Shown here: piece by piece, positions 1,728-42,884 of the stretch
How positions within the stretch are numbered: the first letter of the stretch is position 1
Layout of the letters: each line of letters opens with the position of its first letter
Sequence record: PZ445526.1
Origin: a phage
Direction: 5' to 3' (one strand)
DNA: 64,000 nt
Position numbers and translations under genes: made by a program
The notes under the pieces: model-generated
The model's input: only the letters and a program-made list of their open reading frames with translations
Database searches by the model: none
Told to the model about the DNA's origin: nothing

Positions 1728-2188
1728 TAGTAAAGGTCCTCAGAGTAAAGTTCTTTTTCACTACCACCACGTTCAATACGTACTTGTCCAGCGTAAGTTG
1801 CAATAATCATTGCTTCTTCGCGAGTCCAATAATTACTATATTGGTCAATAAATCCTTGGTCATCATCACAAACTTGCTGAGTAACTAATTGAGGTTTAAC
1901 TACATCTAAAACTTCTGCCATATCTTTAGAATAATGACGAGCACCTGGAATAATAAGAGTTCGTCCATCTTTTAATTTAAAACGATTAGCTGCACAGACA
2001 ATTCGTCGTTGATACTTTTGGTTTTCATCCCAGTATGCAGGCTGCCAACAGATTTCAGGAACTTCTTTCAGAATATCTTCTTCTGCGCATTTATAACCGT
2101 GTGCTTTAAATTTTTGAACAAGACTTTCTGGAGTCTCACGAGATAAAGGAACATTCAGCATTTTTAAACGATTAATAAATGGATTCAT
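1727..2188 (-). CDS. hypothetical protein (153 aa)
   Basis: ORF track, ATG start, stop/start abutting neighbours. Confidence 0.55.
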
Positions 2189-2524: not shown

Positions 2525-3160
2525 TCATAGTTCAGATGCTACAGTGATTACAGCTTCAATGTTTTCTACTGAGCGTTTAATGTCAAGATACACATTACCG
2601 TTTTTAGCGATTTTACATGACATTCCGATGTCAGTAAATTTCTGAATATGATGTTCCATCATTTTGTATCCAAAAATTCGCATATTTCCATTGTTGTTAA
2701 TTTCAAAATTACGAATTCCGTGAGTGCGTTTTTCTAAAATAGCGAGATAGTTACTGCGATAAGTTTCAACCTTTTTAAGAACAAATCCATTTTCATCTAA
2801 AAGTTTTAACATGAAGTCTTTATCTTCTTCCATATCAGAAGTAATCTCACGAGCTTTACGAGTTGCTCGTTTTTTCAGCAGTTCCGGAGCATTTTCTTGT
2901 GCGTATAAAGTTGCTGCATTTGAAATAATATCCTGAGCTTCACCAGTAATGATTAATCCATCACCAGATTTCTCCACCAGGCCTTTTTTAATCAATACCC
3001 CAATATTACTATTAACTACTGCGTTACCTAAATCTGGATGCACCTCACGAACTTCTGCAGCTGTAATGAAATCTTTCTTAGCAATGGTAATTAAAATCGC
3101 AGCAGTTTTTTCATTCAGAACATCGTTAGAAGCTTTGATGATGTAAGTTACTTTAGACAT
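2525..3160 (-). CDS. motA: middle-transcription activator MotA
   Basis: 211 aa, MSKVTYIIKASNDVLNEKTAAILITIAKKDF...; matches remembered T4 MotA length and sequence; early promoter 3202-3231 upstream. Confidence 0.9.
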   Translation of the reverse strand: MSKVTYIIKASNDVLNEKTAAILITIAKKDFITAAEVREVHPDLGNAVVNSNIGVLIKKGLVEKSGDGLIITGEAQDIISNAATLYAQENAPELLKKRATRKAREITSDMEEDKDFMLKLLDENGFVLKKVETYRSNYLAILEKRTHGIRNFEINNNGNMRIFGYKMMEHHIQKFTDIGMSCKIAKNGNVYLDIKRSVENIEAVITVASEL

Positions 3161-3201
3161 TTTCTAATCTCCGTAATTCTGTATCAGTAGTTGATAGTTG
3201 T

Positions 3202-3231
3202 ATAGTACCATAGAATGCTTTGGTTGTAAAC
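3202..3231 (-). promoter_or_regulatory. early promoter for motA
   Basis: minus strand GTTTAC-N18-TACTAT with TGG extension; conserved leader. Confidence 0.6.
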
Positions 3232-3251
3232 AGTTTTGTGAAAAAATTTTT

Positions 3252-3282
3252 GAAATAAAAAAGGGAGAGCCGAGGCTCTCCC
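3252..3282 (-). terminator. rho-independent terminator
   Basis: GGGAGAGC-CUCG-GCUCUCCC followed by UUUUUUAUUU. Confidence 0.6.
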
Positions 3283-3287
3283 TAAAA

Positions 3288-3437
3288 TTACTGCATGACT
3301 GTGATAACTGTCATGATAACACGTTGAATTCCGAACGCAAGAAGACCTCCTGCTACGGCTGGAACAACACCTAAACCCGCCAGTAAAATGCTACCGGATA
3401 CTAATGCAGCGCTTGTAATACCTATGAATGGACTCAT
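3288..3437 (-). CDS. 49-aa hydrophobic membrane peptide (not in ORF track)
   Basis: ATG overlaps gene 52 stop (ATGA); MSPFIGITSAALVSGSILLAGLGVVPAVAGGLLAFGIQRVIMTVITVMQ; followed at once by terminator hairpin. Confidence 0.4.
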   Translation of the reverse strand: MSPFIGITSAALVSGSILLAGLGVVPAVAGGLLAFGIQRVIMTVITVMQ

Positions 3438-4762
3438 TTGATTTCCTCTAAATCTTTGGTGTATTCTGTAACTACATCAGTAGTTTTCCAATATTCGTTT
3501 TCTTCTTTTTTAGCTTTAGCTTCTTCGGCAAGTTTCTTTGCTTCATCAGAAGTCATGTGAAAAATATTCATTCCAACTAGTTTATCAACATAAGAAGAAT
3601 ACATATCGATTTTCGAAAGTTCTTCGGTCAGTTCTTTACGAGTTTTACCCTGCACAATGATTTCACCTGAAATTACTTTCTTAATGAAATGTGCCTTGGC
3701 AAAGGCTAAACGAAAAGCTGATTCAGTTTCTTTAATTTTGTTATCAATTCGTTTTTGAACATAAGTTTTACGAACTTCAACAAAGTCTTTAATTAAATCA
3801 ACTACGTTATCGTAAACTTGTAGTTTTCCTTTCTCATTAATAACCGTAATATTCTGAGAACGACGCTCAATCAACCCGAAGTCTTTCATAATTTTTGCAT
3901 GGCGTTCTTCTTCGTTATCGCTCAAAGAATATTCTTTGCGGAATTTAACTTTGAATCCAAAACCGTGCTCACCACAAGCATCATCCCATGTAATGAAGCC
4001 TTTATCTTCAAGTGGGTCTAAGATTTTACTCACATAAGTTTCACGATCATACTTATACGGAATCTCAGTGATATTCATTTGAGTTCGTGAAGTAAACTTG
4101 TACGTTCCACGAATTTCATATTGACCGTCAATCTCAACGACTTCACCACGAAATTCTGGGAATTCTACCTTCGGTTTAGTTACTTTCTTTCCTTGAAGAG
4201 CTTGCAGTACAGCTTTCTTGACAGAAGAAACACTATGAGGAAGAATGTAAGTTGCATAACCAGTTGCAATACCGGAAACGCCATTAAGAAGAACAGTAGG
4301 AATAATAGGCAAATAGAAAGCAGGCGGAATGTGTTCTTTATCTTGATGTACCGGAGCATATTCAGTATCTTTATATACGTTATAGAAATTTTTACTTACA
4401 CGAGCAAAAATATAACGACTTGCCGCTGCTTTTTGAACGGTACGAGAACCGAAGTTTCCTTGACCATCTAACAGAGGAAAGTTATTATTCCAAGTGTTAG
4501 CCATCAAAGCTCCCGCATCTTGCGCAGAGTTTTCGCCATGGTGATATCCAAGGTCCGCTACACCACCTGCGATAGAAGCTAGCTTATGAAACTTATCTTT
4601 ATTTCCTCGTGCCAAATCAAGAGCTCGAGCAATAACAAATCGTTGAACTGGCTTAAATCCATCAATCATATTTGGGATAGCACGATTTTCAACCGTGTAC
4701 ATAGCATAAGCCAATGCTTCATTATCAATGATACTTTTTAAATCGCGATTATTCAGTTGCAT
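3434..4762 (-). CDS. 52: DNA topoisomerase II medium subunit gp52 (GyrA-like)
   Basis: 442 aa, MQLNNRDLKSIIDNEALAYAMYTVENRAIPNMIDGFKPVQR...; matches remembered T4 gp52 length and N-terminus. Confidence 0.95.
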   Translation of the reverse strand: MQLNNRDLKSIIDNEALAYAMYTVENRAIPNMIDGFKPVQRFVIARALDLARGNKDKFHKLASIAGGVADLGYHHGENSAQDAGALMANTWNNNFPLLDGQGNFGSRTVQKAAASRYIFARVSKNFYNVYKDTEYAPVHQDKEHIPPAFYLPIIPTVLLNGVSGIATGYATYILPHSVSSVKKAVLQALQGKKVTKPKVEFPEFRGEVVEIDGQYEIRGTYKFTSRTQMNITEIPYKYDRETYVSKILDPLEDKGFITWDDACGEHGFGFKVKFRKEYSLSDNEEERHAKIMKDFGLIERRSQNITVINEKGKLQVYDNVVDLIKDFVEVRKTYVQKRIDNKIKETESAFRLAFAKAHFIKKVISGEIIVQGKTRKELTEELSKIDMYSSYVDKLVGMNIFHMTSDEAKKLAEEAKAKKEENEYWKTTDVVTEYTKDLEEIK

Positions 4763-4766
4763 AAAT

Positions 4767-4907
4767 TTACCATACTAGTGAATGTAGTGCCATAATAACA
4801 TCAGAAATGAAAAGCACGACTTGAATTAATCCGAACATTACTCCATAATATAGTGCTACTAATAAAGTAGCAAGGGCTAATGAATAGCCCAAGATTTTCT
4901 TAATCAT
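4767..4907 (-). CDS. 46-aa hydrophobic peptide (not in ORF track)
   Basis: MIKKILGYSLALATLLVALYYGVMFGLIQVVLFISDVIMALHSLVW; start overlaps stop of upstream micro-ORF (ATGATTAA); stop 5 nt before gene 52 ATG. Confidence 0.4.
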   Translation of the reverse strand: MIKKILGYSLALATLLVALYYGVMFGLIQVVLFISDVIMALHSLVW

Positions 4908-5058
4908 TAGTAGATAACAACACAAATGTTAAATATGCACACATACCCTGAGCTAAAGCTTGCGAAAACACACTGCTGGCATCAATACAGATAGTTAAAA
5001 CACATGCTACTATCCAACAAATAAATGAAATAACTCCTAATAATTTTGCAATATTCAT
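4900..5058 (-). CDS. 52-aa hydrophobic peptide, possible ac equivalent (not in ORF track)
   Basis: MNIAKLLGVISFICWIVACVLTICIDASSV...; SD GAGGAAA 7 nt upstream; position between stp and 52. Confidence 0.4.
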   Translation of the reverse strand: MNIAKLLGVISFICWIVACVLTICIDASSVFSQALAQGMCAYLTFVLLSTND

Positions 5059-5065
5059 ATTTTCC

Positions 5066-5146
5066 TCACTGGCGTCCGAAGACGCCTTTAGTTTTAAGAT
5101 TATTACGATAGAACTGCATCACGTGTTCGTTGTGGAAATTACTCAT
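5066..5146 (-). CDS. stp: Stp peptide (26 aa)
   Basis: [26 protein letters not shown] matches remembered T4 Stp; ATG overlaps ndd stop (TAATG). Confidence 0.7.
5071..5086 (-). other. UUCG-tetraloop hairpin inside the 3' end of stp
   Basis: GGCGUC-UUCG-GACGCC; no U-tract. Confidence 0.4.
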
Positions 5147-5604
5147 TAATATGCCTGCAAAACGAATTTAAAATTATCAGCCAACATACGGTTCATTTCT
5201 TCAAGTGTTTGATACTCAGAATGATGATTACGAGTAAACGCTAAAGCTAACTGTCCTTTTCCAAATCCCGTCGTCAGAGGTTTCATCTTAGAAGCAGGCA
5301 GATAAAATACTGTGTATGGAACATTGTTATTTGCAATAGTACGTGCAAGCTGAGACCGACGTTGACGAATATGACTTAGAACTGCACTGAATCCTTGCTT
5401 AGAACGCTGATTACCTACATAAAATCGTGCTGACACACATGGATTACTAAATGGACGACCATCTAATTTACTTACTAAAAAGTAAAATCCAGGTTTAGAT
5501 AAAATATCTTTATGCGGAGTTCCCAAAAACCATTCACCGCCCTTGATTGTACCAATAACAGTTGCGCCTGCATTGTTCAGATCAGTAACAGTCATGTATT
5601 TCAT
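5146..5604 (-). CDS. ndd: nucleoid disruption protein Ndd
   Basis: 152 aa from internal ATG with SD GAGGAAA ([13 protein letters not shown]...), matching remembered T4 Ndd; track start 5658 lies inside an upstream hairpin. Confidence 0.8.
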
Positions 5605-5636
5605 ATTAATTTCCTCTAAATTATTTTCTACTCCAA

Positions 5637-5656
5637 GGCCGCATGAATACGCGGCC
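5637..5656 (-). other. intercistronic stem-loop upstream of ndd
   Basis: GGCCGC / GCGGCC stem with 8-nt loop. Confidence 0.35.
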
Positions 5657-5662
5657 ATTAAA

Positions 5663-5878
5663 TTAATCGTCGCAGTCGACGCTCAATTCCCAAAACTCTT
5701 CTACGGTATAAGTTTCAGTATCATTTTCAATACAGAAACGTTCATTACTGTTATTTGCTAAAGTAGCATTAACTGTCGGTTTCTCGCTAGTGCTCTTAAG
5801 AGGTGAAATACGAATTAACTGATCACCGTTATCTAAACAGAAAATTTCACCAACTTTTACATCTTTAAAACTTTTCAT
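5663..5878 (-). CDS. hypothetical protein (71 aa)
   Basis: ORF track, ATG start with SD GAGGTGA. Confidence 0.5.
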
Positions 5879-5886
5879 AATTCACC

Positions 5887-5997
5887 TCAAGGAGTATAAA
5901 ATCCAAATGCAGTTGTTGACCATCCCATCCAATACGGAAAATTTGCACCAATGTAAAACATGAGAATATAAAACCAACCGCTCAGCAAATTCATCAT
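5887..5997 (-). CDS. 36-aa hydrophobic peptide (not in ORF track)
   Basis: ATG overlaps stop of upstream ORF (ATGA); MMNLLSGWFYILMFYIGANFPYWMGWSTTAFGFYTP. Confidence 0.3.
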   Translation of the reverse strand: MMNLLSGWFYILMFYIGANFPYWMGWSTTAFGFYTP

Positions 5998-6191
5998 TTT
6001 ACACCATTCCAAATTGTTTCAATCACGGATTTTAAACCATTTTGATGAATATCAATTCCGACAACTGCCATCAAATAGATTCCAACTACAACTGAACCCA
6101 AGGCGAAAATCAGCATGAAAATGAATAAAGCCGGAAAAATATTATCGAAAAACCATTCAATAAATGTAAAAGCACTACGTTTACGCTTCAT
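5994..6191 (-). CDS. hypothetical membrane protein (65 aa)
   Basis: Track ORF starts at TTG 6212; internal ATG at 6191 has SD GAGGAAA; one long hydrophobic helix. Confidence 0.5.
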   Translation of the reverse strand: MKRKRSAFTFIEWFFDNIFPALFIFMLIFALGSVVVGIYLMAVVGIDIHQNGLKSVIETIWNGVK

Positions 6192-6198
6192 ATTTTCC

Positions 6199-6312
6199 TC
6201 ACATAAATCCAAAATAAGCGTTTAATACATCAATCATTAAAACGATTGGGAATATACTCAAAACTATTAGTATTATAACTACATTCCATATAGCTTTAAC
6301 AATCTTTTTCAT
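6199..6312 (-). CDS. 37-aa membrane peptide
   Basis: Track ORF 6199..6408 runs through promoter 6341-6370; ATG at 6312 follows leader SD GGAGGA; MKKIVKAIWNVVIILIVLSIFPIVLMIDVLNAYFGFM. Confidence 0.45.
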   Translation of the reverse strand: MKKIVKAIWNVVIILIVLSIFPIVLMIDVLNAYFGFM

Positions 6313-6340
6313 TTTCTGTTCCTCCGTAGTTGATAGGGTA

Positions 6341-6370
6341 ATAATACCACAGAGGAACAGTCTTGTAAAC
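6341..6370 (-). promoter_or_regulatory. early promoter cassette
   Basis: GTTTAC-N18-TATTAT, TGG-extended; near-identical to cassette at 58078-58107. Confidence 0.55.
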
Positions 6371-6376
6371 AACTTT

Positions 6377-6475
6377 TTAAAAATATTCGTAATAAATGTG
6401 AATACCAATCACCACTGCCGAAACTTGTGCAACCCACCACGCACAAGCAATAAGTACAGAATTAAAAATTTTCAT
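6377..6475 (-). CDS. 32-aa hydrophobic peptide (not in ORF track)
   Basis: MKIFNSVLIACAWWVAQVSAVVIGIHIYYEYF; SD GAGG; start overlaps stop of another 28-aa micro-ORF. Confidence 0.25.
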   Translation of the reverse strand: MKIFNSVLIACAWWVAQVSAVVIGIHIYYEYF

Positions 6476-6554
6476 AATAACCTCATCACAAAAGTAAATG
6501 TTAAACAAATTAATGGAATACTAATTAACCAAACAAAACACCACCATAATGAAC

Positions 6555-6818
6555 TCATAGCTCAATCTCAGCGATTTTCATTTCATTACTATTAATAGCC
6601 GCTTTAAGACTATCTGAAAGAATTACATTCCAGTGGTCATTCATATGACCATTAACTAAGCGTGTAATTTCTTCAGGAGTTGAAAAATAAGGCTGATCAG
6701 ACTCCCAATGCGATAATCCTAAGCGAGTATAAATCATGCCTTCATCATCGCTAGAATATTCAACTGACACAAACTCATCAGTTATTTTATGCTTAGCATA
6801 ATAAAATTTAAATTTCAT
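6555..6818 (-). CDS. hypothetical protein (87 aa)
   Basis: Track ORF trimmed to ATG at 6818 behind leader SD GGAGAG; upstream early promoter 6853-6882. Confidence 0.5.
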   Translation of the reverse strand: MKFKFYYAKHKITDEFVSVEYSSDDEGMIYTRLGLSHWESDQPYFSTPEEITRLVNGHMNDHWNVILSDSLKAAINSNEMKIAEIEL

Positions 6819-6852
6819 TTTACTCTCCAAATCCATATCAGTTGATAGTTGT

Positions 6853-6882
6853 ATAGTACCACGGTCCTTGTGGTATGTAAAC
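6853..6882 (-). promoter_or_regulatory. early promoter cassette
   Basis: GTTTAC-N18-TACTAT, TGG-extended. Confidence 0.6.
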
Positions 6883-6897
6883 TGTTTTGTGAAATTT

Positions 6898-7455
6898 TTA
6901 AATGGAAAGATACCATCCGTTGTAGTTGCTTTTTCTTACAACTTTACGAAGGTCTTCTCTGTCACCGATGAACTTCGGAGTGTACTGGATGACACCTGGA
7001 TGAATTTCTTTAGTGTTGAATATAATTATACAGTCAGCGACTTGATGATTTAGAATGGGCCCTAGATTTATTCCAGAACCGTATGGATACTCTCCGCTGC
7101 ATCCTGTTGTTACAGAAATCCAACGTGAGTCAGTTTGGTGTGTCTTAACTTCTACACGAAGCCCGCAGTATCTTGGATGCGCCAATACATCCCATGCGTA
7201 TGTATACGGGTCATTAACATCCTCTTGGCCTTTATTGACATATCCGCTTAGCCAATCTGCTACAAAAAATTCTGCGTACACAGCGATACGACATCTTTCG
7301 ATAACTTCTGCCTTATCCTGATTTGGGTTTTGTTTTAAAGAGTATCTTGCTGTATCAGCAATTTTGACCTTCATTTCACTAGTCAAGTCACTGTTCGATA
7401 GGGTAAATGTCGGAATCTGAAATAGTCTCTGTAAACCCGGATTCGTTTTCTGCAT
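6898..7455 (-). CDS. denB: endonuclease IV DenB
   Basis: 185 aa, matches remembered T4 DenB length and position between ndd region and rIIB; SD AAGGAAAG. Confidence 0.75.
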   Translation of the reverse strand: MQKTNPGLQRLFQIPTFTLSNSDLTSEMKVKIADTARYSLKQNPNQDKAEVIERCRIAVYAEFFVADWLSGYVNKGQEDVNDPYTYAWDVLAHPRYCGLRVEVKTHQTDSRWISVTTGCSGEYPYGSGINLGPILNHQVADCIIIFNTKEIHPGVIQYTPKFIGDREDLRKVVRKSNYNGWYLSI

Positions 7456-7510
7456 TTAGACTTTCCTTTATGTCGGAATCACTGATATTCATATAATAAA
7501 TCATAATTTC

Positions 7511-7537
7511 TCTTAAAACAAAAGGGCCGAAGCCCTT
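7511..7537 (-). terminator. UUCG hairpin, terminator-like
   Basis: AAGGGC-UUCG-GCCCUU then UUGUUUUAAGA. Confidence 0.5.
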
Positions 7538-7539
7538 AT

Positions 7540-7734
7540 TTATTTGAATTGTGCAATTCTTTTCTCTAGACATTCAGCATAAGATTTCATTGAGATGAAC
7601 TGTGAAAGCAGCAGTTCTTGCTCAACTGCACTAACCGTTAGAAACTTTGTGCTTTCTAAAAATTTGCTCAGTGCATTAATTTTGAGCATTAATTGATCGT
7701 ATTCTTCTTTTACTCGTGCTTGATAACCTAACAT
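7540..7734 (-). CDS. hypothetical protein (64 aa)
   Basis: ORF track, ATG with SD AAGGAAAA; bracketed by two UUCG hairpins. Confidence 0.5.
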   Translation of the reverse strand: MLGYQARVKEEYDQLMLKINALSKFLESTKFLTVSAVEQELLLSQFISMKSYAECLEKRIAQFK

Positions 7735-7748
7735 AATTTTCCTTAGTT

Positions 7749-7764
7749 AAGGGCCGAAGCCCTT
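7749..7764 (-). other. UUCG hairpin overlapping the rIIB stop codon
   Basis: AAGGGC-UUCG-GCCCUU; no U-tract. Confidence 0.4.
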
Positions 7765-8701
7765 ATTTAAATTGTTCAGTAACGTCTTCAACTACTTCGT
7801 ATTGGCAGGTACGCATTTTAGCATCGTTGTAATCAATCGGAATTGATACTACATCACGCGGATGTACTTTAACTTTTACAACTCGGCTAGTTGAACTGCC
7901 AAAGTGACGAATATAAGATTTAGAACACACATGTAGACCACGAGAACAAGTTTGTGTATCATCGTCATTCACACGAGTACGCGGCATTTTAACTACTTTA
8001 CCAGGACTGTTATCAAAGGTATTTGAGTGACAGTCAAAGTAATTACTACGAACTACTTTCCAAGCATAGAAGTAACCATCTTCTGTAATTTCAATATCGT
8101 TTGCTACCAAGAAATCAAAAAGTCGAGATACCGCTTTCTGGCTTGGGTTTTCCAGCAGATTTTCCAAGAACGGAAAATAAAATTCAAAGTTTTCGCCTTT
8201 TTCCATCGAATCAAGAATACGATCAACCAAACCAGACCGCAATTCAATATTTTGATAGAATAAGCTTCCACCTTCAATTCGAACATCGCCGGAAATATAT
8301 TTTTCAACAGCGCGACGAACATTAATTTTTTGTGCCGCTTCTTCTAACTTATCTGCTACGAGCAGATTAAGAATTTCCTGGAAGTTTGAATGAGTATTAG
8401 GAGTTGCGTTATAAGTTACACCGTCAACAGTAATTGAAATGAATTTTTTAGAAGCATTCCAAATAATATCAGATTTAGCAGCTGGAGCAATAACTGCATC
8501 GCTATTAACTTTAACTGTAATATCACCGCTAATAGTAACTGTAGAGCGTTCTGCTTCTTCAGCATTTTTCAAAACACGACGGATTGTGTCAACCGATACA
8601 CCTTGCCAATCAGCCAATTCCTGCTGAGTGTAATTACCACTTGAATACAGTTTAACAATTTCAGCTTGTTCGTTTTTGGTCAGGCATTTAATATTGTACA
8701 T
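7763..8701 (-). CDS. rIIB: rIIB protein
   Basis: 312 aa, immediately downstream of rIIA; size and synteny match T4 rIIB. Confidence 0.9.
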   Translation of the reverse strand: MYNIKCLTKNEQAEIVKLYSSGNYTQQELADWQGVSVDTIRRVLKNAEEAERSTVTISGDITVKVNSDAVIAPAAKSDIIWNASKKFISITVDGVTYNATPNTHSNFQEILNLLVADKLEEAAQKINVRRAVEKYISGDVRIEGGSLFYQNIELRSGLVDRILDSMEKGENFEFYFPFLENLLENPSQKAVSRLFDFLVANDIEITEDGYFYAWKVVRSNYFDCHSNTFDNSPGKVVKMPRTRVNDDDTQTCSRGLHVCSKSYIRHFGSSTSRVVKVKVHPRDVVSIPIDYNDAKMRTCQYEVVEDVTEQFK

Positions 8702-24798: not shown

Positions 24799-24999
24799 AT
24801 GGTACAAAAATTAATGGCACTTGTTAATGCCATCAAAGGTAATAAAAAGCGTATAGCTTTTACTATTTCTGCTATGGTAGGAATTTTACTCTGGAACTTT
24901 ATTTTATCACCTGTTGCAATTGCACATGGTATTAATATTCCAGTAGTTACTCTTGATACATTCGTAGATTTAGCATTTGCTTTAGTTGGGTTAATTTAA
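24799..24999 (+). CDS. 66-aa predicted membrane protein on the plus strand
   Basis: Strong SD TAAGGAGG 4 nt before ATG; two hydrophobic segments; convergent with and overlapping the primase stop. Confidence 0.5.
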   Translation: MVQKLMALVNAIKGNKKRIAFTISAMVGILLWNFILSPVAIAHGINIPVVTLDTFVDLAFALVGLI

Positions 25000-41723: not shown

Positions 41724-42739
41724 TGTGTTGCCTCTACATATAACTGATTTGCATATTGAATAAGTGCTTCGCGATCAGAATCAGTGATGTCTGGAATTGC
41801 ATTAATGTATTCTTCCATCAATGTCTGAAGAGATTGAACTTCAACTTCTTCACTGTCATCTGACTCGACAGAGTTATCAATCTTTGACACAACTCGTAAC
41901 GAATGCACAACTTTTTCTAGTTCAGATTCGAACTTCGTCAGATTTTTGTCTACTTCAGTTACTATAACACGTACTGATAGATTTGTAAAATCTTTATAGT
42001 CAATTTTTCCTTTAAATGGATAATGAATTCTACGATGCCAGGTAGTATTGTTTGGAATAAATTCCATTCGTTCTGTTTCTGTATCAAACACCCAGAACCC
42101 ACGAGGGTCATTCTCGTCACCTGCAGTTAGTGTCCATGGTGTCCCAATATATCTGACGTTTGCAGCCTCAGAGATAGTATGGAAGTGACCAGACCACACT
42201 TCTTTATAAGTCTTAAGGAAATCAGGTTCAAGACCGTGAGATTTCATTCCTTTATAAAAATAAAATCCATTCAGTTCCCAGTGACCAACACAAAAAGAAG
42301 CAGATGAAGTTTTGATGTGCTCAAGAATTTCACCAGTATTTTCTTCACACATCCAAGGAATTAAATCAATTAAACATCCGTCAAAATCTACCGTAGTAGG
42401 CTTATCATATACTTTAACATTAGGATATTTAGCCAAAAGCTCAGTAGAGGCATTTGGATGCATTACATTTTTGTAGTGGAGATCGTGATTTCCTACAACA
42501 GTATGTAGGGTAATACCAGCATCATCAAGCATTTGAACTATTTCACGGGCGAACTCCATAGTTTTATGCGTGATTGCTTTTCGCACATCAAAAATATCAC
42601 CGTATTGAATCCATACCGTAATTCCATTTTTCTTAGAATATTCTATCGCTTGCTTAATTCCATCAATTTGAATACCGCGAATCCACTCATCATCAGCTTT
42701 AACGCCTAAATGCCAATCACCTAAATTTAAAATTTTCAT
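41720..42739 (-). CDS. 47: recombination nuclease subunit gp47 (Mre11/SbcD-like)
   Basis: 339 aa; phosphoesterase motifs GDWHLG, GNHD, GHWE, GHFH. Confidence 0.9.
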   Translation of the reverse strand: MKILNLGDWHLGVKADDEWIRGIQIDGIKQAIEYSKKNGITVWIQYGDIFDVRKAITHKTMEFAREIVQMLDDAGITLHTVVGNHDLHYKNVMHPNASTELLAKYPNVKVYDKPTTVDFDGCLIDLIPWMCEENTGEILEHIKTSSASFCVGHWELNGFYFYKGMKSHGLEPDFLKTYKEVWSGHFHTISEAANVRYIGTPWTLTAGDENDPRGFWVFDTETERMEFIPNNTTWHRRIHYPFKGKIDYKDFTNLSVRVIVTEVDKNLTKFESELEKVVHSLRVVSKIDNSVESDDSEEVEVQSLQTLMEEYINAIPDITDSDREALIQYANQLYVEATQ

Positions 42740-42884
42740 ATATCAAGAACCGTCATTGAAATGCAAAATAAAATTATTGAAATAAATCCATCTAGAGTGC
42801 TAAAGAACCCAATCCAACATGCTCTAGTGAATAGATAAAATGCAAGAAAAAGTATCACATATCCAAGAAATATCATTATATCAA

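What the first reader, a model, noticed from the sequence alone, without database searches (positions are those of the whole stretch)
3288..6818. Chains of translationally coupled micro-ORFs encoding hydrophobic peptides
Around genes 52, stp and ndd there is a run of very short ORFs (26-65 codons) whose starts overlap the preceding stop (ATGA, TAATG, ATGATTAA) and which mostly encode single hydrophobic helices, for example 3288..3437, 4767..4907, 4900..5058, 5887..5997, 5994..6191, 6199..6312 and 6377..6475. Most fall below the 60-aa ORF-track cutoff. Stp is a known anticodon-nuclease activator, which shows that peptides of this size are functional in this phage group. The rest are uncharacterised small membrane peptides made early in infection.
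Basis: partly seen in the sequence, partly recalled or inferred. Interest (0 to 1): 0.45.

Follow-up and report, generated by a model that had tools for sequence, protein, structure and literature searches.

The report
Known T4 small membrane-protein genes
The run of tiny overlapping reading frames is real, but these are the long-annotated small early genes of a T4-like phage (motA.1, 52.1, ac, stp, ndd.2 to ndd.6), clearly protein-coding and mostly of unknown function.

Summary
The window is a Tequatrovirus, 99.8% identical to RB3 across this stretch.

The ORFs are real genes. They are intact in 15-17 of 17 Tequatrovirus sequences (16 of 16 for motA.1). In-frame pN/pS is 0.07-0.25, against mostly above 1 in the other frames. 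ndd.4 varies too little within the genus to measure. Each has its own PHROG family.

Hydrophobicity alone proves nothing. 13% of all short ORFs in this 34% GC window are equally hydrophobic.

Stop/start overlaps are a T4-wide habit: 6 of 12 junctions here against 30 of 84 elsewhere. Coupling is plausible only for the four followers with weak or intermediate ribosome-binding sites: 52.1, stp, ndd.6 and ndd.2.

Published data show early transcripts, no detected proteins, and no fitness effect on knock-down. Ac sensitises cells to acriflavine, proposedly by blocking AcrAB-TolC. Deleting the region abolishes phage stimulation of phosphatidylglycerol synthesis.

Most likely the peptides are inner-membrane modulators of host envelope machinery. 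The finding is already known. The most interesting by-product is a hydrophobic micro-ORF overlapping the gene 52 stop in most Tevenvirinae, drawn from unrelated families.

The parts
6853..6881 (-). Early-type sigma-70 promoter (TTTACA, 17 nt, TACTAT, with TG extension) that starts the first chain. It is part of a roughly 60-nt promoter cassette repeated three times.
   Evidence: repeat copies at 6835-6865 and 6876-6894.
6555..6818 (-). 87-aa soluble ORF homologous to RB14ncORF269c and absent from T4. It has its own Shine-Dalgarno site (SD, -6.8 kcal/mol) and leads the chain; its stop overlaps the ndd.6 start (ATGA).
   Evidence: pN/pS is 0.38.
6472..6558 (-). ndd.6, a 28-aa hydrophobic peptide. 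Its SD is weak (-2.7 kcal/mol), so it is a likely coupled follower.
   Evidence: phrog_8851; 16 of 17 intact; pN/pS 0.11.
6377..6475 (-). ndd.5, a 32-aa hydrophobic peptide. It overlaps the ndd.6 stop (ATGA) but has its own GAGGT SD (-6.3 kcal/mol). Found only in Tequatrovirus.
   Evidence: phrog_5011; 17 of 17 intact; pN/pS 0.07.
6341..6369 (-). Second early-type promoter (TTTACA, 17 nt, TATTAT, with TG extension) in the 64-nt gap before ndd.4.
6199..6312 (-). ndd.4, 37 aa. The N-terminus MKKIVK is followed by one 21-residue uncharged hydrophobic segment. It has the strongest SD of the set (-9.5 kcal/mol).
   Evidence: phrog_3098; homologues in Dhaka-, Gapriver- and Karamvirus and other lineages; 17 of 17 intact.
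5994..6191 (-). ndd.2a, 65 aa, Pfam DUF7248. It has a KRKR N-terminus, a 30-residue uncharged segment, and a conserved polar C-terminal tail (GLKSV.E..WNG). It corresponds to T4 'ndd.3' plus 'ndd.2a'.
   Evidence: 67.3 bits against a cut-off of 27; 15 of 17 intact; pN/pS 0.10.
5887..5997 (-). ndd.2, 36 aa (35 aa from the second ATG, which is the start conserved in all relatives). It is aromatic-rich and has no charged residue. It overlaps the ndd.2a stop.
   Evidence: phrog_4135; 16 of 17 intact; pN/pS 0.11; SD -5.2 kcal/mol.
5663..5878 (-). ndd.1, 71 aa, acidic and soluble. It is not a membrane peptide. It belongs to the operon, and its T4 protein was detected early in infection.
5146..5604 (-). 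ndd, the nucleoid disruption protein (152 aa). It leads the ndd-to-stp pair.
5066..5146 (-). [quoted passage not shown] Its start overlaps the ndd stop (TAATG) and its SD is weak (-2.5 kcal/mol). Its last codons form a GGCGUC-UUCG-GACGCC hairpin (5071-5086) just before the ac SD.
   Evidence: PF08133, 75.3 bits against a cut-off of 25; 100% identical to T4.
4900..5058 (-). ac, the acridine sensitivity/resistance gene, 52 aa. It is the variant with an extra Thr near the C-terminus and retains G38. It has its own GAGGAAA SD.
   Evidence: phrog_2501; 96% identical to T4; pN/pS 0.09; PF26944.
4767..4907 (-). 52.1, 46 aa, Pfam DUF7396. It has no SD (+0.9 kcal/mol), overlaps ac by 8 nt, and ends 4 nt before the gene 52 start. 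It is the most widely conserved micro-ORF of the set.
   Evidence: (81.9 bits against a cut-off of 27).
3434..4762 (-). Gene 52, the topoisomerase II medium subunit (442 aa). Its own SD is weak (-2.8 kcal/mol). It is flanked by 52.1 and motA.1.
3288..3437 (-). motA.1, 49 aa, Gly/Ala-rich and hydrophobic. Its start overlaps the gene 52 stop (ATGA) and it has its own GAGGAAA SD.
   Evidence: phrog_3487; 16 of 16 intact; pN/pS 0.10.
3262..3283 (-). Intrinsic terminator (9-bp stem followed by a T run), 5 nt after the motA.1 stop. It is followed by the third copy of the early promoter cassette (3202-3243), which serves motA.

Best explanation
These are genuine, separately translated early genes of a T4-like phage: motA.1, 52.1, ac, stp, ndd.2, ndd.2a, ndd.4, ndd.5 and ndd.6.

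They are transcribed leftward from two early promoters (about 6881 and 6369) through ndd and gene 52 to a terminator at 3283..3262.

Eight of them make helical hydrophobic peptides of 28-65 aa. The inference is that these insert into the host inner membrane within the first minutes of infection. There they would act as small accessory-subunit-like modulators of host envelope machinery.

Ac is the paradigm. Expressed alone, it makes cells hypersensitive to acriflavine and ampicillin, proposedly by disabling AcrAB-TolC efflux. Collectively the region is needed for the phage-induced rise in phosphatidylglycerol synthesis.

Stp is the exception. It is a soluble peptide that inhibits type Ic restriction.

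The genes are dispensable on laboratory hosts and are gained, lost and swapped as cassettes. This fits conditionally useful host-takeover or host-range functions.

Expression logic: ORFs with a strong GAGG site initiate independently (ac, ndd, ndd.2a, ndd.4, ndd.5, motA.1 and the 87-aa ORF). The SD-poor followers that overlap the preceding stop (52.1, stp, ndd.6 and probably ndd.2) would be translated by ribosomes terminating on the upstream ORF.

Shown: gene identity, purifying selection, early transcription, dispensability, and the Ac phenotype. Inferred: membrane insertion, protein targets, and coupling.
For: Identity:
- The coordinates map one-to-one onto annotated genes of RB14, T4 and RB3. 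The window is 99.8% identical to RB3 over 4763-6560.
- Each ORF has its own PHROG family. Pfam hits are DUF7396, DUF7248 and PF08133, plus PF26944 for Ac.

Coding:
- The ORFs are intact in 15-17 of 17 Tequatrovirus sequences (16 of 16 for motA.1).
- In-frame pN/pS is 0.07-0.15 for seven of them and 0.25 for 52.1. ndd.4 has too few changes within the genus to measure. The other frames are mostly above 1; the antisense frame that shares third positions is low, as expected.
- Cross-genus pN/pS is 0.11-0.65.
- Homologues occur in Mosig-, Dhaka-, Gapriver-, Karam-, Winkler- and Jiaodavirus.

Hydrophobic and helical.

Transcription units.

Early transcripts for all T4 orthologues: Table S2 of PMC9697503.

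Ribosome-binding-site dichotomy.

Ac function: bioRxiv 10.1101/2025.06.30.662393 and PMC13250531.

Region phenotype: the saΔ9 deletion abolishes stimulation of phospholipid synthesis (PMC6071114).

Precedent: a small transmembrane protein, AcrZ, binds AcrB (PMC7267776).

Cassette turnover.
Against: - None of the hydrophobic peptides was detected in the T4 time-course proteome (Class_P = NA). They have only 0-6 Lys/Arg, and 0-3 in all but ndd.2a, so this is weak negative evidence.
- CRISPRi-ART knock-down of every one of them gave 'Not Fit'. No function is therefore demonstrated on the laboratory host.
- The Ac-AcrB interaction is a proposal from a preprint. It has no binding data.
- Ac shows no sequence similarity to AcrZ.
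- The gene responsible for the phosphatidylglycerol phenotype is unmapped. It could be ndd, ndd.1 or denB.
- Coupling has not been tested. A guide on the 52.1 start did not phenocopy gene 52 knock-down, so at least gene 52 does not depend strictly on the upstream chain.
Confidence: 0.6

Rival explanations
1. The peptides act on the lipid bilayer itself rather than on specific host proteins. On this view they are toxin-like or holin-like membrane-perturbing peptides, or superinfection-exclusion factors in the manner of T4 Imm and Sp. They would collapse transport or proton-motive force, or seal the envelope against secondary phages.
For: - They are very short, very hydrophobic peptides with few charges.
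- Kutter et al. note that many small immediate-early T4 genes are host-lethal when cloned.
- T4 has other clusters of membrane proteins involved in exclusion, imm and sp.
- Nine unrelated families, and turnover of families at fixed positions, suggest that generic hydrophobicity may be enough.
Against: - Amino-acid sequences are under strong purifying selection with specific conserved motifs. Examples are LYYGV.FGLIQVVLFISDVI...W in 52.1, SVFSQALAQG in Ac, and GLKSV.E..WNG in ndd.2a.
- A single G38R change abolishes Ac function.
- Ac expression reduces viability mainly in the presence of drug.
Confidence: 0.2
2. The ORFs matter mainly in cis, as relay or leader frames. Their translation would keep ribosomes on the long early polycistronic mRNA. 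That would protect it from Rho and RNases and deliver ribosomes to SD-poor essential genes such as gene 52. The peptide products would be of secondary importance.
For: - Gene 52 has a weak SD (-2.8 kcal/mol) and starts 4 nt after the 52.1 stop. 52.1 has no SD and overlaps ac.
- 52.1 sits immediately upstream of gene 52 in the Tevenvirinae loci where it was found.
- In T4, deletion of the 87-aa ORF left an 8-codon relic that keeps the SD and the ATGA overlap with ndd.6.
- Unrelated families occupy the same coupled positions.
Against: - pN/pS of about 0.1 shows selection on the peptide sequence, not merely on an open frame.
- Knock-down at the 52.1 start has no fitness cost, whereas knock-down of gene 52 does.
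- The saΔ9 deletion, which removes 52.1 through denB, is viable.
Confidence: 0.1
3. Several of the peptides, like Stp, are counter-defence factors or triggers. They would target membrane-bound or membrane-associated host immunity or prophage exclusion systems found only in some natural hosts.
For: - Stp, embedded in the same chain, is exactly such a factor.
- The genes are dispensable on laboratory strains.
- Cassette gain, loss and replacement between close relatives is typical of arms-race genes.
- The position after ndd holds either stp or a 57-aa hydrophobic ORF, or both.
Against: There is no direct evidence for any of the hydrophobic peptides. Several families (52.1, ndd.4, ndd.6, ndd.2a) are conserved across genera infecting different hosts. 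That is less typical of narrow arms-race genes.
Confidence: 0.1
4. The ORFs are chance open frames in AT-rich spacer DNA and are not genes.
For: 13% of all short ORFs in the window are equally hydrophobic. The proteins were never detected by mass spectrometry.
Against: - Frame-specific purifying selection and ORF integrity across 17 relatives.
- Cross-genus homologues.
- Strong SD sites.
- A genetic phenotype for ac and for stp.
Confidence: 0.02

Closest known systems
Phage T4 genes motA.1, 52.1, ac, stp, ndd.2, ndd.2a/ndd.3, ndd.4, ndd.5 and ndd.6 (NC_000866), and their RB14 and RB3 orthologues
   Same: Same order, strand and junctions. Protein identity to the T4 or RB14 orthologues is 94-100%.
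   Different: - The window carries the intact 65-aa ndd.2a, which the T4 reference record splits by a 1-nt difference.
- It carries the 87-aa ORF upstream of ndd.6, which T4 and RB3 lack.
- It carries the Ac variant with an extra Thr.
Bacterial small transmembrane regulators of membrane complexes, for example AcrZ bound to AcrB (PMC7267776)
   Same: These are helical hydrophobic peptides of similar size. Ac alters drug susceptibility in a way that points to the same pump.
   Different: There is no sequence similarity (Smith-Waterman z of 0.8 for Ac against AcrZ). The AcrZ sequence was supplied from memory. Ac appears to impair resistance rather than enhance it. No binding has been shown.
T4 Imm and Sp, and the other T4 clusters of small predicted membrane proteins (for example 47.1 and 55.8)
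   Same: These are small early membrane proteins encoded in non-essential regions of the same genome. Many overlap their neighbours.
   Different: Imm and Sp have defined superinfection-exclusion phenotypes. No such phenotype is known for the ndd.x, 52.1 or motA.1 peptides.
Hyperplastic regions and PeSL promoter-terminator cassettes of T4-like phages (PMC2839356, PMC4122927)
   Same: The region varies between relatives by cassette insertions and deletions. It contains three copies of a roughly 60-nt early-promoter cassette, one of them directly after a terminator hairpin.
   Different: I did not align these copies to the published PeSL consensus. Several indels here lie at gene junctions without a promoter copy.
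Type I toxin peptides (Hok, TisB and similar)
   Same: Hydrophobic peptides of 28-50 aa.
   Different: No antisense RNA or Rfam family was found in the region. The ORFs are expressed from phage early promoters as parts of long operons. Toxicity has not been shown.

Membership tests
Stp / Pfam PF08133 (anticodon nuclease activator) | Match to the family model above the gathering score | tested here: met
   75.3 bits against a cut-off of 25, covering 26 of 26 residues.
Stp / Pfam PF08133 (anticodon nuclease activator) | Conserved N-terminal 18 residues, which carry the activity | tested here: met
   [18 protein letters not shown] is identical to T4 and present in 16 of 17 Tequatrovirus sequences; one has L17F. 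Only the C-terminus varies.
Stp / Pfam PF08133 (anticodon nuclease activator) | Inhibition of type Ic restriction and activation of PrrC | not testable with these tools
   Requires a prr+ host or an in-vitro assay.
Ac (acridine sensitivity protein; PF26944, phrog_2501) | Sequence membership | tested here: met
   phrog_2501 at E = 3.7e-25. 96% identical to T4 Ac. All homologues carry PF26944.
Ac (acridine sensitivity protein; PF26944, phrog_2501) | Functionally critical Gly38 (G38R gives resistance), and Asp26/Ala27 between the two hydrophobic halves | tested here: met
   The window sequence has D26, A27 and G38.
Ac (acridine sensitivity protein; PF26944, phrog_2501) | Confers acriflavine sensitivity on infected cells | not testable with these tools
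   Shown for T4 Ac only.
DUF7396 (gp52.1) | Match above the gathering score; position directly upstream of gene 52 | tested here: met
   81.9 bits against a cut-off of 27. It lies 4 nt upstream of gene 52 here and at the same position in the other Tevenvirinae loci where it was found.
DUF7248 (ndd.2a) | Match above the gathering score | tested here: met
   67.3 bits against a cut-off of 27.
Translationally coupled gene pairs | Start codon overlapping, or within a few nt of, the upstream stop | tested here: met
   Six junctions overlap by 1, 4 or 8 nt. The frequency is not higher than in T4 at large (p = 0.36).
Translationally coupled gene pairs | The downstream gene lacks an effective ribosome-binding site of its own | tested here: inconclusive
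   Met for 52.1 (+0.9), stp (-2.5) and ndd.6 (-2.7 kcal/mol). Intermediate for ndd.2 (-5.2). Not met for motA.1 (-6.0) and ndd.5 (-6.3).
Translationally coupled gene pairs | Downstream translation depends on upstream translation | not testable with these tools
   Needs nonsense mutants or reporter fusions.
AcrZ-like small transmembrane regulators | Sequence homology to AcrZ | tested here: not met
   Smith-Waterman against shuffles gives z = 0.8 for Ac. The best pair, 52.1, gives z = 3.4, which is not significant over 231 pairs. The AcrZ sequence was taken from memory.
AcrZ-like small transmembrane regulators | Short helical hydrophobic peptide | tested here: met
   AlphaFold2 gives a helix over residues 2-45 of 52.1 (pLDDT 96) and residues 3-50 of Ac (pLDDT 74).
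AcrZ-like small transmembrane regulators | Physical binding to a host membrane complex | not testable with these tools
   No complex prediction or binding assay was available.
Type I toxin-antitoxin peptides | Associated antisense or regulatory RNA family | tested here: not met
   Rfam found nothing near gathering scores in 3000-7800.

The most novel reading that the evidence does not exclude
The conserved arrangement of 52.1, gene 52 and a hydrophobic micro-ORF overlapping the gene 52 stop is functional, not accidental.

The arrangement is kept in most Tevenvirinae even though at least seven unrelated peptide families occupy the downstream slot. On this reading, small membrane peptides made from the same mRNA as gp52 would tether or regulate the phage topoisomerase II and replication machinery at the inner membrane.

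Alternatively, or in addition, one of the 52.1 or ndd.x peptides is the unidentified factor that switches host phospholipid synthesis towards phosphatidylglycerol.
Probability: 0.1. Interest if true: 0.6.

Novelty: already known. Interest (0 to 1): 0.25.

Why it matters
The finding itself adds little. These ORFs have been in the T4 annotation for decades, and orthologues are annotated in hundreds of phage records.

It still points at a real gap. Eight conserved, selected membrane peptides in the best-studied phage have no known target. The region carries an unmapped phenotype, stimulation of phosphatidylglycerol synthesis. Only Ac has a mechanistic proposal.

The candidate list is short: about eight peptides plus ndd.1. 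Single-gene add-back into the saΔ9 deletion would make that old question directly testable.

If Ac does block AcrAB-TolC, phage-encoded efflux inhibitors would be of practical interest for combining phages with antibiotics.

Tried and rejected
- Paralogy. I tested whether the micro-ORFs arose by tandem duplication. All 36 within-window pairs score z of 2.0 or less against shuffles, so they are nine unrelated families.
- Ac as an AcrZ mimic by sequence. No similarity was found.
- Solved structures for Stp and Ac. None exist.
- NCBIfam names. None were found; there was only a sub-threshold bacteriocin hit for Ac.
- Rfam RNAs in the region. None were found.
- AlphaFold2 to decide single pass against hairpin. 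Both 52.1 and Ac came out as one long helix. For isolated hydrophobic peptides this does not settle topology.
- 52.1 appearing more conserved than gp52 in JS10 and P479 looked like exceptional constraint. The cause is a younger shared history of that segment: pS is 0.36-0.41 against 0.71-0.74 in gp52, with ordinary pN/pS of 0.11-0.13.
- Enrichment of stop/start overlaps in this region. It is not significant against T4 1-50 kb.
- Literature search by gene names was swamped by 'NDD' (neurodevelopmental disorder) papers.
- The T4 genome review, looked up as PMC150520, is not held.
- No T4 ribosome-profiling study was found.
- No paper on membrane association of T4 topoisomerase was found. My recollection of such work is not used as evidence.
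- The HIDEN-SEQ preprint does not mention these genes in its text.

Full report
WHAT THE WINDOW IS

The 4.4-kb stretch around the finding matches hundreds of Tequatrovirus (T4-like) genomes at 95-97% nucleotide identity. The 4763-6560 core is 99.8% identical to phage RB3. All genes here lie on the minus strand.

The annotations of RB14, T4 and RB3 give a one-to-one mapping:
- motA 2525..3160
- motA.1 3288..3437
- gene 52 3434..4762
- 52.1 4767..4907
- ac 4900..5058
- stp 5066..5146
- ndd 5146..5604
- ndd.1 5663..5878
- ndd.2 5887..5997
- ndd.2a 5994..6191
- ndd.4 6199..6312
- ndd.5 6377..6475
- ndd.6 6472..6558
- an 87-aa ORF 6555..6818, present in RB14 and absent from T4
- denB 6898..7455

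CHECK OF THE OBSERVATION

The overlap motifs read exactly as described. ATGA occurs four times, TAATG once and ATGATTAA once.

Eight of the nine micro-ORFs are hydrophobic. Seven have a best 19-residue Kyte-Doolittle window of 2.2-3.1, and ndd.2 reaches 1.2. Stp is hydrophilic.

IS IT MORE THAN CHANCE?

Hydrophobicity alone is weak evidence in a 34% GC genome. 40 of 300 ATG-ORFs of 25-70 aa in all six frames of the window reach the same hydrophobicity. Only 7 of these also have a Shine-Dalgarno motif, and 5 of the 7 lie in 3288..6475.

The decisive test is comparative. I aligned 17 Tequatrovirus sequences: the window, RB14, T4, RB3, four IMG/VR contigs and nine GenBank phages.
- The ORFs are intact in 15-17 of 17 sequences, and in 16 of 16 for motA.1.
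- Pooled pN/pS in the annotated frame is 0.07-0.15 for ndd.6, ndd.5, ndd.2a, ndd.2, stp, ac and motA.1. It is 0.25 for 52.1.
- These values are the same as for ndd (0.09) and ndd.1 (0.10).
- The two other sense frames and two of the antisense frames give values mostly above 1.
- ndd.4 has too few changes within the genus to judge, but it has homologues at 36-61% identity in other genera.

The few broken alleles look like strain-level lesions. They are ac and ndd.2a nonsense codons in SV76, an ndd.2 nonsense codon in JK23, and an ndd.6 frameshift in one IMG/VR contig.

ANATOMY OF EXPRESSION

Three near-identical copies of a roughly 60-nt early-promoter cassette lie at 6835-6894, 6323-6382 and 3184-3243. 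Each contains a TTTACA-17-TAnTAT promoter with a TG extension.

The first copy precedes the 87-aa ORF. The second sits in the 64-nt gap before ndd.4. The third follows a strong terminator (3283..3262, 5 nt after motA.1) and serves motA.

There are therefore two nested early units:
- 87-aa ORF, ndd.6, ndd.5
- ndd.4, ndd.2a, ndd.2, ndd.1, ndd, stp, ac, 52.1, gene 52, motA.1

Duplex energies with the 16S 3' end split the genes into two classes.
- Independent initiators, -6 to -9.5 kcal/mol: the 87-aa ORF, ndd.5, ndd.4, ndd.2a, ndd.1, ndd, ac and motA.1.
- SD-poor followers that overlap the preceding stop: ndd.6 at -2.7, stp at -2.5 and 52.1 at +0.9. ndd.2 is intermediate at -5.2.

Gene 52 itself is SD-poor (-2.8) and starts 4 nt after 52.1.

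Termination-reinitiation coupling is thus a reasonable inference for four of the six overlaps. It is not needed for motA.1 or ndd.5. Overlapping junctions are as common in the rest of the T4 early regions (30 of 84 against 6 of 12, p = 0.36). The arrangement is a genome-wide habit, not a special property of the micro-ORFs.

The last codons of stp form a GGCGUC-UUCG-GACGCC hairpin immediately upstream of the ac ribosome-binding site.

WHAT THE PRODUCTS ARE

Each ORF has its own PHROG family. 52.1 is Pfam DUF7396, ndd.2a is DUF7248 and stp is PF08133. Ac homologues carry PF26944.

The nine peptides are unrelated to each other, with all pairwise z of 2.0 or less against shuffles. Homologues of 52.1 and Ac occur essentially only in T4-like phage sequences. 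No solved structure, NCBIfam family or Rfam RNA matches.

AlphaFold2 predicts continuous helices for 52.1 (residues 2-45, pLDDT 96) and Ac (residues 3-50, pLDDT 74). The Ac preprint's ESMFold model has two helices hinged at D26/A27. Topology is therefore unresolved.

Charge patterns suggest single-pass peptides with a basic N-terminus for ndd.4 and ndd.2a. ndd.2a also has a conserved polar C-terminal tail.

PUBLISHED FUNCTIONAL DATA

Stp. This 26-aa peptide inhibits type Ic restriction (EcoprrI, EcoR124I) and thereby unleashes the PrrC anticodon nuclease. Its N-terminal 18 residues carry the activity (PMC3014915). Those residues are nearly invariant in my set, while the C-terminus comes in two versions.

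Ac. Loss of ac makes T4 resistant to acriflavine. Ac expressed alone sensitises E. coli to acriflavine and ampicillin. G38R inactivates it. A variant with an extra Thr near the C-terminus, the form in this window, is functional. The authors propose that Ac blocks AcrAB-TolC (bioRxiv 10.1101/2025.06.30.662393; repeated in PMC13250531). There are no binding data. The host small protein AcrZ shows that a single transmembrane helix can modulate AcrB (PMC7267776).

Region phenotype. The saΔ9 deletion removes 52.1, ac, stp, ndd, ndd.1-ndd.6 and denB. It abolishes T4's stimulation of phospholipid synthesis, especially phosphatidylglycerol, yet still gives about half the normal phage yield. The responsible gene is unknown (PMC6071114).

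Omics. Transcripts of all T4 orthologues are classed as early. Of the proteins, only Ndd and Ndd.1 were detected (PMC9697503 Table S2). The hydrophobic peptides have only 0-6 Lys/Arg, and 0-3 in all but ndd.2a. Non-detection is therefore expected.

Fitness. CRISPRi-ART knock-downs of motA.1, 52.1, ac, stp, ndd and ndd.1-ndd.6 were all 'Not Fit'. Gene 52 was 'Fit' (PMC11879866 supplement).

MOST LIKELY MECHANISM

These are early, non-essential phage peptides that insert into the inner membrane and modulate host envelope machinery. Ac acting on drug efflux is the paradigm. The phospholipid phenotype is the collective read-out.

The followers 52.1, stp, ndd.6 and probably ndd.2 would be expressed by coupling to the ORF upstream.

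Gene identity, selection, timing and dispensability are shown. Membrane insertion, host protein targets and coupling are inferred.

Rivals are listed with their tests in the rival-explanations section:
- bilayer-perturbing or exclusion peptides
- cis-acting relay ORFs
- counter-defence factors
- chance ORFs

The chance-ORF reading is excluded. The relay-ORF reading is weakened by the low pN/pS and by the lack of polarity on gene 52.

COMPARATIVE PICTURE BEYOND THE GENUS

I examined 61 loci around gene 52, and tabulated homologues of each micro-ORF in the first 52 of them. The denB-to-gene 52 interval is a small-hydrophobic-protein island throughout the Tevenvirinae.
- 52.1, ndd.4, ndd.6 and ndd.2a recur across genera.
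- ndd.5 is confined to Tequatrovirus among these loci.
- motA.1 and ndd.2 also occur in one unnamed lineage of IMG/VR contigs.
- The slot after ndd holds stp, or a 57-aa hydrophobic ORF with two hydrophobic segments, or both.
- The slot before 52.1 holds ac or an unrelated 51-54-aa 'GVWVPS' family. Some Tequatroviruses carry a second, divergent ac.

In 31 of 50 loci, and in 31 of 39 with gp52 at least 66% identical, a hydrophobic ORF of 22-77 aa starts within -12 to +15 nt of the gene 52 stop, overlapping it in most. These ORFs come from at least seven unrelated families.

This positional conservation with family turnover is the most interesting thing I saw. It fits the known cassette plasticity of T4-like hyperplastic regions (PMC4122927). 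It may also hint at a functional link with gp52.

VERDICT

The feature is already known and annotated, and its functions remain mostly open. Interest is low to moderate.

Noticed in passing
window 5994..6191; T4 NC_000866 locus L002:3933..4129; resequenced T4 MT984581 locus L063:1528..1725: The T4 reference genes 'ndd.3' (26 aa) and 'ndd.2a' (40 aa) are one 65-aa gene (DUF7248) split by a 1-nt difference just after the start codon. The window reads ATGAAGCGT and NC_000866 reads ATGAACGT. The resequenced T4 record has the intact 65-aa ORF, as do 15 of the 17 Tequatrovirus sequences I aligned. The split is therefore probably a sequencing error or a stock-specific lesion. 'ndd.3' is a PHROG singleton for that reason.
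   Followed up: yes
window 6555..6818; T4 locus L002 about 4497..4520 (minus strand): T4 lacks the 87-aa ORF, as do RB3, SV76 and PhiZZ30. In T4 an 8-codon relic remains (ATGAAAATCGCTGAGATTGAACTATGA, MKIAEIEL*). It is the start codon and SD fused in frame to the last seven codons, and it still overlaps the ndd.6 ATG by ATGA. The deletion lies between two ATGAAA repeats and preserves the coupling geometry for the SD-poor ndd.6.
   Followed up: partly
Loci L001-L052, at the stop codon of gene 52 (window 3434..3437): In 31 of 50 loci a hydrophobic ORF of 22-77 aa starts within -12 to +15 nt of the gene 52 stop, in most cases overlapping it by 1 or 7 nt. These ORFs belong to at least seven unrelated sequence families: motA.1, MSLGVEF..., MRVA..., MIEFYLI... 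and others. Mosigvirus, CC31-like and Acinetobacter phages lack one.
   Followed up: partly
L053 (JLBYU22) 1907..2062; L054 (JK23) 1983..2156; equivalent to window about 5059..5146: Some Tequatroviruses carry extra cassettes in the chain. JLBYU22 has a second, divergent ac paralogue (51 aa, of the Mosig/Jiaodavirus type) between stp and ac. JK23 has a 57-aa hydrophobic ORF with two hydrophobic segments between ndd and stp. That family replaces stp in the Winkler-, Jiaoda- and Karamvirus loci examined here.
   Followed up: partly
window 3184-3243, 6323-6382, 6835-6894; also 7522-7542 and 7749-7769: There are three copies of a roughly 60-nt early-promoter cassette. One sits directly after the motA.1 terminator, making a PeSL-like terminator-promoter composite. 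There are also two identical copies of the hairpin AAGGGCCGAAGCCCTTATTTA flanking denB.1. Such repeats are the proposed recombination points for cassette shuffling in T4-like phages.
   Followed up: partly
window 4763..4766 and the gene 52 start at 4762: Essential gene 52 has a weak ribosome-binding site (-2.8 kcal/mol). It starts 4 nt after the stop of the SD-less 52.1, which in turn overlaps ac. Even so, a CRISPRi-ART guide on the 52.1 start had no fitness effect in T4.
   Followed up: partly
L056 (SV76), L054 (JK23), L014 (IMG/VR contig): Strain-level lesions occur in these genes. SV76 has nonsense codons in ac and ndd.2a. JK23 has one in ndd.2. L014 has a frameshift at the end of ndd.6 that extends it to 83 aa. 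This is consistent with dispensability in culture.
   Followed up: no
L003 (Mosigvirus KAW3E185) 3288..3428; several other GenBank records: Many deposited annotations omit 52.1, stp, ndd.6 or ndd.4. One example is an unannotated 52.1 homologue in KAW3E185. Other records give these genes transferred names that look spurious, such as 'naphthalene 1,2-dioxygenase', 'transcriptional regulator' or 'outer membrane protein'.
   Followed up: no
window 5146..5658: The mechanical ORF list, and the RB3 and JLBYU22 annotations, start ndd at an upstream ATG (170 aa). T4 and RB14 start it at the ATG at 5604 (151 or 152 aa), which has a GAGGAAA site 6 nt upstream. A GGCCGC...GCGGCC hairpin lies in the ndd.1-ndd spacer.
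   Followed up: no
window 42736..42876 (-) and 24799..24999 (+): These are the only other hydrophobic micro-ORFs with an SD motif in the 64-kb window. The first (46 aa) may correspond to T4 47.1, a predicted membrane protein that overlaps the start of gene 47; this was not checked. The second (66 aa, plus strand) was not identified.
   Followed up: no
protein P0017 (81 aa, a Logan assembly): One database protein carries both the Stp (PF08133) and Ac (PF26944) domains in a single chain. This implies a frameshifted or fused stp-ac allele, or an assembly error.
   Followed up: no
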